Shown piece after piece: positions 9,365-17,854 of a stretch of 64,000 nt of DNA; position 1 is the stretch's first letter, and the number at the start of each line of letters is the position of its first letter. A program made the translations under genes and the position numbers. Source of the DNA: Arenicellales bacterium (GTDB lineage: Bacteria > Pseudomonadota > Gammaproteobacteria > Arenicellales > JAHEKD01); assembly GCA_965215945.1 (NCBI GenBank), contig CBDCFC010000047.1, positions 20,643 through 84,642 of the forward strand. The letters are read 5' to 3'. The notes under the pieces were generated by a model. It made no database searches. It was given only the letters and a program-made list of their open reading frames with translations, and had not been told where the DNA came from.

Positions 9365-12300
9365 ATGAGACTGTTTAGACGAGGGATTAACACTTTTTAT
9401 TTCACCATTGCGCTGTTACTCATGGGGCCTATGGCGCATGTATTCGCGCAGTCGGATGCCCCGGTGGGGTCGGATCAGGGCAATATTGAGATCAGTACTG
9501 ACGGACAGGCCATGTACACCTTACCGGTGACGGTGCCACCGGGTGTGTTGGGATTGTCTCCCAAGCTCACCCTGTCGGTGTCCCAGACCGGCCAGCTAAA
9601 TGTGGGTGGCTTATCCAGTATTACACGTTGTACTGGCGCGTATGTTGATCACGGTGAAACAAAACCCGTTCGATTACTAGCATCAGATCAATACTGCCTT
9701 GACGGTGCGCCGTTGGTTCTTGTCGATGGTGTACAGGGTGAAGCAGGCAGTATTTATCACACTCAAATCGAATCGTTTCAAAAGATTCAGGCGGTAGGTC
9801 AACAAGGAAATGGCCCTCAATATTTCAAAGTCAAAACCCGTACGGGTGGGACACTGTATTTCGGGCATTCTGTATTATCACGTACAGCACGTAGCGCTGA
9901 TAACACAGTGCTCAATTGGTCGATCAGTCTGATTGTCGATCCCTCAGGAAATCGTTTATGGTACACCTACAAGGACAAGAGTACGAACTCAACGCCAGAA
10001 GTAGTATTAAACGCAATTTTGTATGGTGCAAAGACTTCAGCTGCAGCACCTGTGCGTATTGATTTTGAATATGAACACAACGGTCATGCCCGTTACGGGT
10101 ATCAATACGGTGATCCGGTTAAATCAACACAGCGATTAAAGCAAATTACGACGAAAGCCGATAATAAAATCGCTCGAAAATATGTTGTCACTTATGAACA
10201 GATTGCGCCCAGTGGTGCATCACGGGTGACGAAAATTCACGAATGCCCGGCCACCGGTAAATGTTACCGCCCCAGTGTGTTTAATTATGCCGCCGCACAA
10301 ACCGGTTGGCAGAATGCCTCAATTTCCCAACCGTCTGCCTTGCAGGATAATCAGGGTCGAAGCCGCGGTGTGGTGCTGGATATTAACAATGATGGGTTTA
10401 ATGACTGGGTCATTGCGGTTCAACCGGAAACGGGATCGGCACAGATTCAAACCTGGCTGGGCAGTGATAGCGGTTGGGTAGATGGCACGGACTTTACCTT
10501 GCCCGGTGTGTTGTTTGATTACCGGATGAATGCCGAAGGTATTCCCGTGGGCAATCTTGCCGATTTAAATGGTGATGGACTGGTTGATTATTTTCAGGCG
10601 TATTTTCAATACCGCGACGATGGCAGTACCTACACATCAAGAACGACCTGGCTGAATACCGGTAACGGTTTTGAAGCTAATACAGCCCTGCGTCCACCGT
10701 GGTATCAGTTTGTCATTAATGCCGATGGGATTGCCAGTGCCTATGACCGCTATGCCGATGTAAACGGAGATGGCCTGGTGGATGCGGTGCGGGCCATTCA
10801 TCGCCGTACAGATGCCGACCAACCGAATGCCAGTTCACACGTGACTCGCCTTAACACCGGATCAGACTGGGCGGTCAGTAGTGCCTATAAATTACCCAGC
10901 AACGTCTATTTCTCTGATCATGTAACCCAACCCGAAGGCATTTATCAGGGTGAATTATTGGACATTAACGGTGATGGGCTGGTTGATTTTGTGCAATCGG
11001 CCAAAGTGTCCGGCACCGACACACGTACTGCCACCTTTTTAAATACCGGTAGCGGCTGGAGTGCGAATACGGCGTATCAAATCCCGGCATTGGCCACCTT
11101 AATGGACTACAGTGTTTATGATAAAGGCATTCCAAACGCCGAACTGGTGGACATTAACGGCGATGGTCTGATTGATATTTGGCAGGCGCTCAAGCTTGGC
11201 GCTAATGATCCGCAGTATAACGCTTGGCTAAATAACGGCTCGACATTTGTCTATTCCAATGCATACAAACCAAAAAACCGCACCACCTATATTCGTGGTT
11301 CAGGCGCAGTACTGAAATACGGTGAACTCATGGATGTGGATGGGGATGGCAAACCGGAACATGTTCAACACGTCCTGACCGAATCCACAGGCGCAACGTC
11401 ATTAGTGGTGTATAAACATAATGGCAGTGGCTGGGTCAGTGATGCGGGATTGAAATCCTTGCTGCCCTCGATTCCATTTTATATGCAGCCCGCATCCAGC
11501 AGTTTATCCAGTCAGCAGTTGTTACAGTTGGCGGATTTGGATGGCGACGGTTCTGCCGAAGCATTTTTATCGCAGGATAAAACCAACGGCTGGCAGGTTA
11601 AAACGGACAAAAATAAATTAACGAATGGCACTCAACCGGGGTATTTGACTCAACATACCAACGGACTGGGCATCGAGACACGGCTGGAATACGGTTTGTC
11701 GACTATCGATGCAATACTCTATACGCCTGCCGATTCAACCCAAAATACCCGCACCTCGGCGGCGGTGAATACACCGATAGTGCTCGTGAAAACCGTTAAG
11801 AAAATGAATGGTTTGATTCATCCGAAAACAGCCAAGACGAATGATCAAGGTAATGGCTGGTTTCGCGTCAATCATCAGTATGGTGAACTCAAAGCCGATC
11901 TAACCGGACGCGGTTCATTGGGCTTTAAAACCCGGACGATTACGGACGAGCGTACCGGCATTGCCGTGCATTCTGAGTTTTATCAGGGTTATCCCTTTAG
12001 CGGCATGCCTTACAAAAGTCGCCAGCAATTAGGTGATACGGTGCTCAGTACGACCGAAACCCCATCAATGGAACAAAAATCCGTCACCGGCGGATTGACC
12101 ACTTATATTTATGCGCCGCAAACCATTGCCAAGAACTATGATCCGGTCACCGGGGATTTACTCAGCACCACTACAACCACCTCGACGTATGATGATTACG
12201 GCAATGTCCTGACTAAATCACAGGTCACCAGCGGTCAAGTCAATAACACAAGCCAGCGCTTTGAGCAGTTTACAGATACCACCTACGAAAACCGCAGCGA

Positions 12301-17854: not shown

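What the first reader, a model, noticed from the sequence alone, without database searches (positions are those of the whole stretch)
9365..17854. Sec-signal, fused TcB-TcC-type Rhs toxin with no recognisable delivery partner
Seen: residues 1-28 form a signal-peptide-like N-terminus (MRLFRRGINTFYFTIALLLMGPMAHVFA/QS). This is followed by an SpvB/TcdB-N-like segment and seven xDxNGDGxxD FG-GAP/VCBS-type repeats (about 10367-11570). YD repeats follow, then an Rhs core ending ...[12 protein letters not shown], and finally a 392-aa C-terminal region. Established: this is the domain order of Tc-toxin TcB followed by TcC, which together form a cocoon around the C-terminal toxin. The DPxG motif is the aspartyl autoproteolysis site. 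The part before the non-YD insert is 1470 aa, which matches my recollection of stand-alone TcB proteins at roughly 1,470-1,490 aa. Inference: this is a one-polypeptide BC cocoon exported by Sec. The window contains no TcA, VgrG/PAAR or T6SS genes, so the release and entry mechanism is open.
Basis: partly seen in the sequence, partly recalled or inferred. Interest (0 to 1): 0.65.

Follow-up and report, generated by a model that had tools for sequence, protein, structure and literature searches.

The report
Sec-exported single-chain Rhs cocoon toxin island
This is a real 2,829-residue bacterial toxin of a known class (a Tc-toxin-like B and C "cocoon" in one chain with an export signal), and the new lead is five small exported helper genes that travel with it and may explain how such toxins are delivered without a syringe.

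Summary
The ORF and every listed feature are present: signal peptide, SpvB-like domain, seven FG-GAP loops, TcdB-mid domain, YD repeats, Rhs core ending [10 protein letters not shown], and a 392-aa tail. A 40-member family profile matches TcdB2-TccC3 (E 5e-50), YenB and TccC2. The architecture is not new. "Signal peptide + SpvB + beta-propeller + RHS" was defined in 2012, and more than 1,300 homologues exist.

Two corrections apply. First, the 590-aa non-YD insert is not at the TcB/TcC junction. It interrupts the TcC-like shell about 260 residues in, at a variable site that holds 13 aa in half the family and 168-736 aa in the rest. Second, candidate partners exist. Five small exported proteins (6725-9284) recur beside related Rhs genes in at least eight loci, in changed order and different genome contexts.

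The payload is modular. It has a +14 amphipathic helix, a glycine-zipper module related to DUF637 (present in 97 of 124 relatives), and a 134-aa variable toxin. A lipoprotein immunity gene follows.

The locus also carries spare toxin/immunity cassettes. It sits on a 19.9-kb tRNA-Arg island bounded by 57-bp repeats.

It is most likely an interbacterial toxin. How it leaves the producer and enters the target remains inferred.

The parts
5815..5891 (+). tRNA-Arg(ACG). Its 3' half plus 9 nt (5844-5900) is the left copy of the island's 57-bp direct repeat.
   Evidence: ARAGORN and Rfam; repeat found.
6725..7060 (+). Accessory gene A: small secreted two-Cys protein. The ORF opens at 6668; the likely start is MKKRLL at 6725, with a signal peptide ending VHA/DV.
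   Evidence: Translation. Family members lie upstream of Rhs in L011, L001, L003, L005 and L014. No Pfam, PHROG or NCBIfam match.
7076..7510 (+). Accessory gene B: secreted ~120-aa protein with CPxxWE and SEC motifs. It is the best conserved accessory gene.
   Evidence: 60-83% identical orthologues. Every B homologue with enough flank lies next to an SpvB-Rhs gene. Only 13 clusters match among 1.84 billion representatives.
7491..7877 (+). Accessory gene C: lipoprotein with lipobox LLGA/C, a Gly/Ser linker and a four-Cys domain.
   Evidence: Translation. Homologues in L011, L001, L006 (three copies) and weakly in L005.
7909..8472 (+). Accessory gene D: protein with an N-terminal membrane anchor, a Pro/Ser/Glu-rich linker and a conserved C-terminal SGIPxxDLxxAF motif.
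   Evidence: The same C-terminal motif occurs in L006_9071 and L014_3250.
8469..9284 (+). Accessory gene E: signal peptide, an acidic Pro/Glu region, then a ~130-aa coiled coil.
   Evidence: Only generic coiled-coil matches (SMC, Rad50, tape measure) over residues ~117-259. Homologues in L011, L001 and L003.
9365..9448 (+). Rhs signal peptide (residues 1-28, predicted cleavage VFA/QS).
   Evidence: heuristic; the feature is conserved in the family.
9449..10354 (+). SpvB/TcB N-terminal-like domain.
   Evidence: Pfam SpvB E 1.3e-7. Profile positions 47-421 align to TcdB2 residues 33-466.
10379..11560 (+). FG-GAP / integrin-like beta-propeller with seven Ca-loop motifs.
   Evidence: Profile positions 525-836 align to TcdB2 residues 499-790.
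11513..11956 (+). TcdB_toxin_midN-like region.
   Evidence: Pfam PF12256, 32.1 bits.
12365..13756 (+). YD/RHS shell, first part (residues ~1001-1464). It includes the segment equivalent to the N-terminal ~260 aa of TcC.
   Evidence: RHS_repeat and YD_repeat_2x matches; mapping.
13757..15514 (+). Non-YD insert (residues 1465-2050): long helices at both ends with a Cys/Trp/Tyr-rich middle.
   Evidence: No Pfam, NCBIfam or PDB match. The site is variable across the family. In the AlphaFold2 model only the first and last helices are confident.
15515..16402 (+). YD/RHS shell, second part (residues 2051-2346), equivalent to TccC residues ~260-590.
16403..16675 (+). Rhs-associated core with the aspartyl autoprotease motif. 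D2406 and D2433 are invariant, the motif reads P2428-xxxx-D-PS-G, and cleavage is predicted after Y2437.
   Evidence: TIGR03696; invariant columns; motif defined in PMC7861908.
16676..17449 (+). Conserved payload module (residues 2438-2695): a 42-aa cationic amphipathic helix, a transmembrane-like segment, and glycine-zipper / GGxFxxG repeats. It is related to DUF637.
17450..17854 (+). Variable toxin domain (residues 2696-2829) plus the stop codon. Activity is unknown; there is a weak DUF6973 match.
   Evidence: PF22322 at 24.5 bits, below the 27-bit cutoff. 55% identical to the tail of a second Rhs in Ca. Poriferihabitaceae.
17857..18207 (+). Cognate immunity candidate: a 116-aa lipoprotein with lipobox LSG/C.
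   Evidence: A 32%-identical homologue follows the homologous toxin tail in L009.
18475..19752 (+). Orphan Rhs-CT cassette: core remnant, the conserved payload module, and a different 125-aa tail.
   Evidence: Weak DUF637 match at E 0.003.
19755..20024 (+). Immunity candidate for the orphan cassette: an 89-aa integral membrane protein.
20055..20513 (+). Second orphan fragment: the end of the conserved module plus a third variable tail.
20497..20784 (+). Fragment of a tyrosine integrase.
   Evidence: Pfam Phage_integrase E 2.7e-16, C-terminal part only.
21149..22162 (-). Candidate transposase ORF (337 aa). I read it as IS110-type from its sequence, but it was not scanned against any library.
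   Evidence: Translation. The two other IS110 copies in the window have Pfam support.
22336..25203 (+). 5'-truncated second Rhs copy. It is 82% identical to residues 1898-2692, including long 100%-identical blocks, and carries a fourth variable tail.
25219..25656 (+). Immunity candidate for the truncated copy: a lipoprotein with lipobox IQG/C.
25786..25842 (+). Right copy of the 57-bp direct repeat (3' half of tRNA-Arg). This is the island's right end.
   Evidence: No match in 100 shuffles.

Best explanation
The gene encodes a Sec-exported, single-chain BC-type (TcB+TcC-like) Rhs/YD cocoon toxin. It belongs to the known class 'signal peptide + SpvB + beta-propeller + RHS'. It lies on a 19.9-kb tRNA-Arg genomic island with its immunity gene, spare toxin/immunity cassettes and five small exported accessory genes. 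It most likely serves competition between bacteria.

Proposed steps:
1. Sec exports the protein and signal peptidase I removes residues 1-28 (inferred from sequence).
2. The shell folds around the last 392 residues, and the Rhs aspartyl protease cuts them off after Y2437 (inferred by homology).
3. The enclosed payload has three parts: a strongly cationic amphipathic helix, a glycine-zipper module related to DUF637 that most of the family shares, and a 134-aa variable toxin. A periplasmic lipoprotein neutralises the toxin. The modular layout is shown; the activities are inferred.
4. Passage across the producer's outer membrane, or display on its surface, is handled by accessory proteins A-E, possibly together with a general pathway such as T2SS. 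The helical insert projects from the shell as a contact or recognition element (inferred; this is the weakest step).
5. On membrane contact the payload's own membrane-active module inserts and carries or exposes the toxin. This has been proposed from structural and biophysical data for the Rhs pore-former Tse5 (by analogy).
For: Identity:
- Pfam and NCBIfam domains score above their cutoffs.
- The family profile matches TcdB2-TccC3 at E 5e-50, YenB at 2e-25, and also TcdB1, TccC2 and YenC2.
- More than 1,300 homologues share the architecture.
- The class is defined in PMC3482391.

Interbacterial role:
- A lipoprotein gene follows the toxin, and the tail plus this gene recur together on another Rhs at 55% and 32% identity.
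- There are three further CT cassettes, two with membrane or lipoprotein partners.
- Related orphan cassettes end in peptidoglycan-acting domains: Tae4, Tlde1/YkuD and M23.

Payload:
- The helix has net charge +14 and a hydrophobic moment of 2.32, against 0.52 +/- 0.28 in shuffles.
- The conserved module lies directly after the cleavage site in 97 of 124 relatives, followed in most by a 115-220-aa variable tail.
- 8 of 18 module members match DUF637.

Accessory genes:
- The order A-B-C-D-E-Rhs is identical in L011.
- In L001 the genes sit after the immunity gene.
- In L005 and L009, B is divergent upstream of the Rhs.
- A, B and a D-like gene lie upstream of a 34%-identical Rhs in L014.
- The flanking genes differ between loci.
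- B is extremely rare yet always Rhs-linked.

Precedents: Bcn-A needs small neighbouring ORFs and T2SS (PMC7259588). The Tse5 cage delivers a pore-former on membrane contact (PMC10684867).
Against: - No experiment or localisation data exist for this protein or any close relative.
- A-E match no known family.
- The AlphaFold2 models of B and of the insert are unusable, with pLDDT 42 and 46. The roles of A-E and the insert therefore rest on synteny and sorting signals alone.
- C-family lipoproteins occur in three copies downstream of the Rhs in L006, a position more typical of immunity genes.
- Linkage could partly reflect co-transfer on islands.
- Only one insert-free relative was inspected (L013), so the link between accessory genes and the insert is anecdotal.
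- The window's own tail does not reach significance against DUF637.
- The rest of the genome was not visible, so a distant TcA, T6SS or lysis cassette cannot be excluded.
Confidence: 0.6

Rival explanations
1. It is the BC part of a classical Tc toxin and docks onto a TcA pentamer encoded elsewhere in the genome. TcA would inject the payload into eukaryotic (for example sponge host) cells.
For: There is clear homology to TcdB2-TccC3 and YenB/YenC2, including the beta-propeller that contacts TcA in Tc toxins. Natural B-C fusions are known (PMC7861908). The closest relatives come from Arenicellales and Ca. Poriferihabitaceae MAGs.
Against: - No TcA gene lies in the 64-kb window or in the flanks of 9 related loci.
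- Canonical TcB and TcC lack export signals (PMC3789776), while this family has Sec leaders.
- Tc loci lack immunity genes (PMC7861908), whereas this locus has immunity candidates and orphan cassettes.
- The shell is about 300 aa shorter than TcB+TcC.
Confidence: 0.05
2. It is a type VI secretion effector mounted on a VgrG/PAAR spike encoded elsewhere.
For: The best-studied Rhs toxins of Gram-negative bacteria use T6SS. The YD region matches T6SS Rhs structures.
Against: The N-terminus is a Sec leader followed by SpvB and a propeller. There is no PAAR, prePAAR or VgrG-binding region. No T6SS gene is in the window. A Sec-exported protein would not be in the compartment from which T6SS loads.
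Confidence: 0.03
3. The conserved glycine-zipper module is itself the toxin, a Tse5-like or ionophore-like pore-former. The variable tails mainly set immunity specificity. Genes A-E are additional immunity or self-protection factors for a toxin that passes through the producer's own periplasm, not export factors.
For: The module is hydrophobic, rich in GxxxG and preceded by a +14 amphipathic helix. Tse5-CT and a family of CdiA ionophore toxins are membrane-active. The immunity candidates are membrane or periplasmic lipoproteins. C-family lipoproteins sit in three copies downstream of the Rhs in L006.
Against: The same module precedes tails with recognised enzymatic domains in relatives: M23, CHAP, Tae4, Tlde1, Ntox44 and Tox-JAB-2. 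That fits a carrier role. Four cassettes in this locus share the module but have different tails and different downstream genes, so specificity lies in the tail.
Confidence: 0.2
4. It is mainly a surface adhesin or host-interaction protein of a symbiont, like teneurins or the YD proteins of mussel symbionts, and its toxin function is secondary or lost.
For: Relatives are from sponge-associated lineages. YD/Tc-like proteins are abundant in beneficial symbionts (PMC4612132, listed). The insert could act as an adhesion element.
Against: The autoprotease residues are intact and invariant. The toxin and immunity genes are conserved as a pair. The turnover of CT cassettes is the signature of an active polymorphic toxin locus.
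Confidence: 0.1

Closest known systems
TcdB/TcaC-type RHS polymorphic toxins (Zhang, Aravind et al. 2012, PMC3482391)
   Same: It has exactly the defining architecture: signal peptide, SpvB domain, integrin-like beta-propeller, RHS repeats, a variable C-terminal toxin and an adjacent immunity gene.
   Different: The 2012 description lists only 'TcdB' as a signature neighbour gene. It reports no accessory operon. It lists DUF637 as a pre-toxin domain only under T5SS. In the passages I read it does not mention an insert in the shell.
Tc toxin BC cocoon (TcdB2-TccC3, YenB-YenC2; PDB 4O9X, 6H6E, 4IGL)
   Same: Homologous SpvB, propeller/mid and TcC shell regions and the aspartyl autoprotease. The toxin is presumably encapsulated.
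   Different: It is one chain with a Sec leader. The shell is about 300 aa shorter. A 590-aa insert sits at TccC position ~260. No TcA is nearby. It has immunity genes and orphan cassettes, so its target is probably bacterial rather than insect.
Bacterial teneurin-like proteins (BiTLP; PMC13018210, 2026)
   Same: Both are Sec-exported YD-shell toxins with polymorphic tails, immunity genes and a membrane-active hydrophobic CTD. The delivery machinery is unknown in both.
   Different: TLPs close the shell with an FN-plug and an NHL propeller and carry a TIP domain. This protein uses SpvB and an FG-GAP propeller, the TcB type.
Tse5 (P. aeruginosa T6SS Rhs pore-forming effector; PMC10684867, PMC9637101)
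   Same: An Rhs cage encloses a membrane-inserting tail that is released on membrane contact.
   Different: Tse5 is delivered by T6SS, is about 1,300 aa, and has no SpvB/propeller and no extra enzymatic tail. No sequence match was found between the payload-module profile and any PDB chain.
Xanthomonas perforans bacteriocin Bcn-A locus (PMC7259588)
   Same: An RHS-family antibacterial toxin that does not use T6SS. Its activity needs small neighbouring ORFs (ORF2, ORF4), it has a membrane immunity protein, and activity is lost in a T2SS (xpsD) mutant.
   Different: Bcn-A is 1,398 aa and is reported to lack a signal sequence. Its accessory ORFs lie downstream.
CdiA pre-toxin region (DUF637 / PT637)
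   Same: A Gly-rich domain lies immediately before the variable toxin. 8 of 18 family members match Pfam DUF637.
   Different: Here the domain lies after an Rhs cleavage site inside a cocoon, not in a T5SS filament. The window's main copy does not itself reach significance.

Membership tests
TcdB/TcaC-type RHS polymorphic toxin | N-terminal Sec signal peptide | tested here: met
   Sequence rules only: three Arg, a hydrophobic core and VFA/Q. 94 of 124 relatives show the same layout. No dedicated predictor was available.
TcdB/TcaC-type RHS polymorphic toxin | SpvB domain followed by an integrin-like (FG-GAP) beta-propeller | tested here: met
   SpvB scores 31.6 bits against a cutoff of 22. FG-GAP_3 scores 37.5 against 26.9. 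Seven Ca-loop motifs are present.
TcdB/TcaC-type RHS polymorphic toxin | RHS/YD repeats and an Rhs core with the PxxxxDxxG autoprotease motif | tested here: met
   RHS_repeat scores 73 bits. TIGR03696 scores 60 bits. P2428, D2433 and G2436 are invariant in 40 relatives.
TcdB/TcaC-type RHS polymorphic toxin | Variable C-terminal toxin with a cognate immunity gene and stand-alone cassettes | tested here: met
   There are four different tails in the locus. The tail and the downstream lipoprotein are co-inherited in L009. Toxicity and immunity were not tested experimentally.
Classical Tc toxin (ABC) BC subcomplex | Sequence homology to TcB and TcC | tested here: met
   The profile matches TcdB2-TccC3 at E 5e-50, YenB at 2e-25, TcdB1 at 3e-24 and TccC2 at 5e-25.
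Classical Tc toxin (ABC) BC subcomplex | A tcA gene in the locus, with which BC forms the holotoxin | tested here: not met
   No TcA family was found in the window or in the called genes of 9 related loci. The rest of the genome was not visible.
Classical Tc toxin (ABC) BC subcomplex | No export signal and no immunity gene (as reported for Tc loci) | tested here: not met
   A Sec leader is present and immunity candidates are present. The literature basis is PMC3789776 and PMC7861908.
   Residue 2051 maps to TccC residue ~258-273 in four independent chains.
T6SS Rhs effector | PAAR/prePAAR or a VgrG-interacting N-terminus, with T6SS or chaperone genes nearby | tested here: not met
   No PAAR or VgrG family was found in the protein or the window.
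Bacterial teneurin-like protein (TLP) | FN-plug + NHL propeller + YD shell superfold | tested here: not met
   Only the YD shell is shared (a TEN_YD-shell hit is on record). The plug and propeller are SpvB/FG-GAP. 9pt5 and 9ifo match only the shell end.
DUF637 / PT637 pre-toxin domain | Significant match to Pfam PF04830 | tested here: inconclusive
   The main copy has no hit at E <= 0.01. The orphan copy scores E 0.003 at 17.7 bits, below the 26.6-bit cutoff. 8 of 18 aligned relatives match, best E 2e-6.
tRNA-integrated genomic island | Direct repeat of the tRNA 3' end at the far border, plus an integrase | tested here: met
   A 57-bp perfect repeat lies at 5844-5900 and 25786-25842, with none found in 100 shuffles. 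Only an integrase fragment remains. GC is 46-47% against 42% in the flanks.

The most novel reading that the evidence does not exclude
The five conserved exported proteins A-E, together with the helical insert that projects from the shell, form a previously undescribed dedicated apparatus. It takes a Sec-exported BC-type cocoon across or onto the outer membrane and presents it to target cells. In this clade it would replace TcA or T6SS. A-E comprise two small secreted proteins, an outer-membrane-type lipoprotein, an inner-membrane-anchored protein and a periplasmic coiled-coil protein.
Probability: 0.25. Interest if true: 0.75.

Novelty: new variant of a known kind. Interest (0 to 1): 0.45.

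Why it matters
How Sec-exported YD-shell toxins leave the producer and enter a target is an acknowledged open question. A 2026 structural paper on teneurin-like toxins states it explicitly.

This locus does not reveal a new toxin class. It does provide a compact, testable system with three parts:
- a cocoon with a built-in surface appendage;
- a payload whose first two modules look designed for membrane insertion;
- a set of five co-inherited exported proteins of unknown family.

If those proteins are needed for release or delivery, they would define a new route for very large periplasmic cargo. They would also help explain the thousands of "orphan" SpvB-Rhs genes annotated only generically.

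Tried and rejected
- AlphaFold2 of the insert (5-sequence alignment) gave mean pLDDT 46, with only the first and last helices confident. AlphaFold2 of accessory protein B (6 sequences) gave pLDDT 42. Both are too poor for fold searches, so none were run.
- PDB sequence searches with the insert, the variable tail and the payload-module profile found nothing meaningful.
- Pfam, PHROGs and NCBIfam scans of A-E and the immunity candidates gave only generic coiled-coil or signal-peptide noise. There is therefore no homology support for the spanin-like reading of C, D and E that I considered.
- dN/dS for A-E could not be estimated. Synonymous sites are saturated between the window and L011 or L001; only D gave a defined dS of 1.70.
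- Promoter and terminator scans were no better than shuffles.
RecR is 63% and DnaX 45% identical to a Ca. Poriferihabitaceae genome.
- B has no relative in phage genomes. The JGI metagenome scan found one remote hit on a 2.2-kb contig.
- No paper mentions DUF6973.
- Plasmid homologues carry only generic names.
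Full report
**Observation.** The ORF at 9365..17854 (+) is real: 2,829 codons in one frame, with an AAGGA ribosome-binding site 10 nt upstream. Residues 1-28 (MRLFRRGINTFYFTIALLLMGPMAHVFA/QS) follow the rules for a signal peptidase I substrate. 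By a crude heuristic, 94 of 124 relatives have the same kind of N-terminus, followed directly by the conserved PVGSxxG start of the SpvB domain.

All domain matches score above their curated cutoffs:
- SpvB
- FG-GAP_3
- TcdB_toxin_midN (residues 717-864)
- RHS_repeat
- Rhs-associated core (residues 2347-2436)

Seven Dx[ND]xDGxx[DE] loops lie at residues 339-732, nt 10379-11560. The core ends [12 protein letters not shown] at residue 2437, and 392 residues follow.

**Family.** A search with the full protein found 1,311 proteins at E <= 1e-10 among the candidates scored. The best 120 nearly all show the same one-chain architecture, in Gammaproteobacteria, Verrucomicrobiota and other groups. Their annotation is generic, for example 'RHS repeat-associated core domain-containing protein', 'SpvB/TcaC N-terminal domain-containing protein' and 'FG-GAP-like repeat-containing protein'.

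A profile of 40 members matches solved Tc toxin chains:
- TcdB2-TccC3 at E 5e-50, with separate aligned stretches for the SpvB domain, the propeller/mid region and the TccC shell
- YenB at 2e-25
- TcdB1 at 3e-24
- TccC2 at 5e-25
- YenC2 at 8e-21

The BC-type reading is therefore correct. It is also not new. Zhang et al. [quoted passage not shown] Song et al. 2021 mention natural tcB-tcC fusion genes (PMC7861908).

**Correction 1: the insert is not at the B/C junction.** I mapped the family profile onto the window protein. Residue 2051, the first after the insert, corresponds to profile position 1524. That position aligns to four chains:

| Chain | Aligned position |
|---|---|
| TccC3 in the fusion chain 6suf_F | chain residue 1745, about TccC3 residue 265 |
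| TccC2 | residue 258 |
| YenC2 | residue 273 |
| RHS2 | residue 271 |

Only 387 residues separate the insert from the cleavage site, whereas TcC shells have about 680. The insert therefore interrupts the TcC-like shell about 260 residues in. The '1470 aa = TcB' match is a coincidence. Without insert, leader and tail, the shell is about 1,820 aa, against about 2,150 for TcB+TcC.

The site is a variable hot-spot. Of the 40 aligned relatives, 17 have a 12-14-aa connector there and the other 23, the window protein among them, have 168-736 aa. The inserts fall into at least four mutually unrelated, helix-rich sequence families. The AlphaFold2 model of the window's insert is poor (pLDDT 46). It is confident only for a ~40-residue helix at each end. 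That is compatible with a two-helix stalk leaving and re-entering the shell, but it shows nothing more.

**Payload.** The 392-aa tail has three modules:
- *Cationic helix.* Residues 2438-2479 ([42 protein letters not shown]) have net charge +14. The helical hydrophobic moment is 2.32, against 0.52 +/- 0.28 (maximum 1.54) in 1,000 shuffles.
- *Membrane-active module.* A transmembrane-like stretch follows, then a Gly/Ala-rich region with many GxxxG motifs and two HGxxGG...GGxFxxG repeats.
- *Variable tail.* The last 134 residues are variable.

Three further cassettes in the locus keep the first two modules and swap the last one: 18475-19752, 20055-20513 and the tail of 22336-25203.

An HMM of the conserved module finds it directly after the DPxG[YF] site in 97 of 124 family members, followed in most by a 115-220-aa variable tail. 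Eight of 18 aligned members match Pfam DUF637, the pre-toxin domain of CdiA, with best E 2e-6. The window's main copy does not match, and its orphan copy scores only E 0.003.

A profile search found many ~350-460-aa stand-alone cassettes in marine gammaproteobacteria. Some end in Tae4, Tlde1/YkuD or M23 domains, which act on peptidoglycan. Full-length relatives also carry M23, CHAP, Ntox44, Tox-JAB-2 and WHH tails. The module therefore behaves as a carrier placed before diverse toxins.

The window's own tail has only a sub-threshold DUF6973 match. It has no PDB relative, and its activity is unknown.

**Immunity and target.**
- ORF 17857-18207 is a lipoprotein (lipobox LSG/C).
- The partner of the first orphan cassette is an 89-aa membrane protein.
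- The partner of the truncated copy is another lipoprotein.
- In Ca. Poriferihabitaceae, a second Rhs (L009) carries a tail 55% identical to the window's, followed by a 32%-identical homologue of 17857-18207.

This co-inheritance is the signature of a toxin-immunity pair. Periplasmic or membrane-located immunity points to action at the envelope of other Gram-negative bacteria.

**Correction 2: candidate partners exist.** Five tightly packed genes precede the Rhs:

| Gene | Coordinates | Description |
|---|---|---|
| A | 6725-7060 | secreted two-Cys protein |
| B | 7076-7510 | secreted protein with CPxxWE and SEC motifs |
| C | 7491-7877 | lipoprotein |
| D | 7909-8472 | membrane-anchored, with a conserved C-terminal SGIPxxDLxxAF motif |
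| E | 8469-9284 | signal peptide, acidic region, ~130-aa coiled coil |

None matches Pfam, PHROGs or NCBIfam. Their homologues accompany related Rhs genes in other loci:

| Locus | Arrangement |
|---|---|
| L011 | identical order A-B-C-D-E-Rhs |
| L001 (57%-identical Rhs) | A-like genes upstream; B-C-D-E after the immunity gene |
| L003 | A-like genes and B upstream; B, D and E also downstream |
| L004 | B fused to a phage tail-collar domain |
| L005, L009 (36%-identical Rhs) | A and B divergent upstream of two Rhs copies in one genome |
| L006 | three C copies and a D-like gene |
| L014 (34%-identical Rhs, a different insert family) | a D-like gene, A and B upstream |

The flanking housekeeping genes differ between loci.

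B is very rare:
- six 90% clusters among 5.8 billion proteins
- 13 hits among 1.84 billion representatives
- three loci in the GTDB species representatives
- one remote hit in JGI metagenomes

Every copy with enough flank lies next to an SpvB-Rhs gene. The single insert-free relative inspected (L013) has no such genes.

Synonymous sites are saturated between orthologues, while B and C keep 53-65% amino-acid identity. That is consistent with purifying selection. This is linkage evidence, not functional evidence.

**Genomic setting.** The locus is a mobile island. The 3' 48 nt of tRNA-Arg(ACG) plus 9 nt (5844-5900) is repeated exactly at 25786-25842, with no match in 100 shuffles. The repeats enclose 19.9 kb, which holds:
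- A-E, the Rhs gene and its immunity gene
- two orphan cassettes
- an integrase fragment
- a transposase-like ORF (not scanned against any library)
- a 5'-truncated second Rhs copy with its own immunity gene

The A-E and Rhs genes have 46-47% GC, against 42% elsewhere. Outside the island the window holds housekeeping genes (fumarase, ffs, dnaX, ybaB, recR, queG, tsaE, amiB, mutL, miaA, hflXKC, hisS, purA and others). It has no TcA, T6SS or T2SS gene.

**Mechanism.** Shown by sequence and comparison:
- a Sec-type leader;
- a TcB/TcC-homologous shell with intact autoprotease residues;
- a three-module payload;
- immunity-like partners;
- cassette turnover;
- co-inherited exported accessory genes;
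- location on a mobile island.

Inferred by homology: encapsulation, and cleavage after Y2437.

Inferred by analogy: the payload's amphipathic helix and glycine-zipper module insert into a target membrane when the cage meets it. This has been proposed from structural and biophysical data for Tse5 (PMC10684867). It is also suggested by the membrane-active CTD of the Bacillus teneurin-like protein (PMC13018210).

Least certain is how a roughly 300-kDa periplasmic cage crosses the producer's outer membrane. My preferred reading is that A-E act in this step or in surface display. An experimental precedent exists. The RHS-family bacteriocin Bcn-A of Xanthomonas perforans needs two small neighbouring ORFs, and its activity is lost in a T2SS mutant (PMC7259588). 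The main alternative is that A-E protect the producer's own envelope.

**Verdict.** This is a correct observation of a known class. The interpretation needs two specific corrections. The comparative analysis adds a lead (accessory operon plus shell insert) that makes an acknowledged open question experimentally approachable.

Noticed in passing
window 5844-5900 and 25786-25842: A perfect 57-bp direct repeat formed by the 3' half of tRNA-Arg(ACG). It bounds a 19.9-kb genomic island holding the whole Rhs locus. Only a fragment of the integrase remains (20497-20784).
   Followed up: yes
window 22336-25656: A 5'-truncated second copy of the Rhs gene begins inside the insert (equivalent to residue 1898). 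It sits just after a transposase-like ORF (21149-22162, not scanned) and has its own variable tail and lipoprotein partner. This probably records a past recombination or displacement event.
   Followed up: partly
L009:2007-2707 (Ca. Poriferihabitaceae OZ245025.1): The window's variable toxin tail and its immunity lipoprotein recur together, at 55% and 32% identity, on a much more distant Rhs (36% identity). The cassette has evidently moved between lineages.
   Followed up: partly
L004:8927-9937: In one relative the B-family accessory protein is fused to a phage tail-collar domain (PF07484). This hints that B is part of an exposed, fibre-like or binding structure.
   Followed up: no
L005:173-1360 and 22607-23098: In Ca. 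Poriferihabitaceae the related Rhs island, with a serine recombinase, splits a comM-like Mg-chelatase gene. As in the window, it lies just upstream of dnaX-ybaB-recR.
   Followed up: no
window 48788-49666 and 49542-50591: The RNase R gene is split into two overlapping ORFs (OB/CSD + RNB start; rest of RNB). This is either a frameshift, a pseudogene or a sequencing error. tRNA-Leu(CAG) lies just upstream at 48665-48751 (-).
   Followed up: no
window 29501-31158 and 53564-55218: Two copies of a ~1.66-kb IS110-family element, 98.5% identical. The left end was not mapped.
   Followed up: partly
window 3947-5470 (-) and 47029-48138 (+): Two Fic-domain proteins. One lies immediately outside the island next to the tRNA-Arg gene. 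The other carries a DUF4172 N-terminal domain.
   Followed up: no
window 26628-26724: Small SRP RNA (ffs) lies between the island's right end and dnaX.
   Followed up: no
window 3446-3522: A second tRNA-Arg (TCG) lies on the + strand inside the 5' extension of the mechanically called fumarase ORF (1809-3554, -). The fumarase Pfam match starts at residue 88, so the true start is probably downstream of the tRNA.
   Followed up: no
window 625-1721 (-): Two type IV pilin-like genes: a PilW-like gene and a short one with an N-terminal methylation motif.
   Followed up: no
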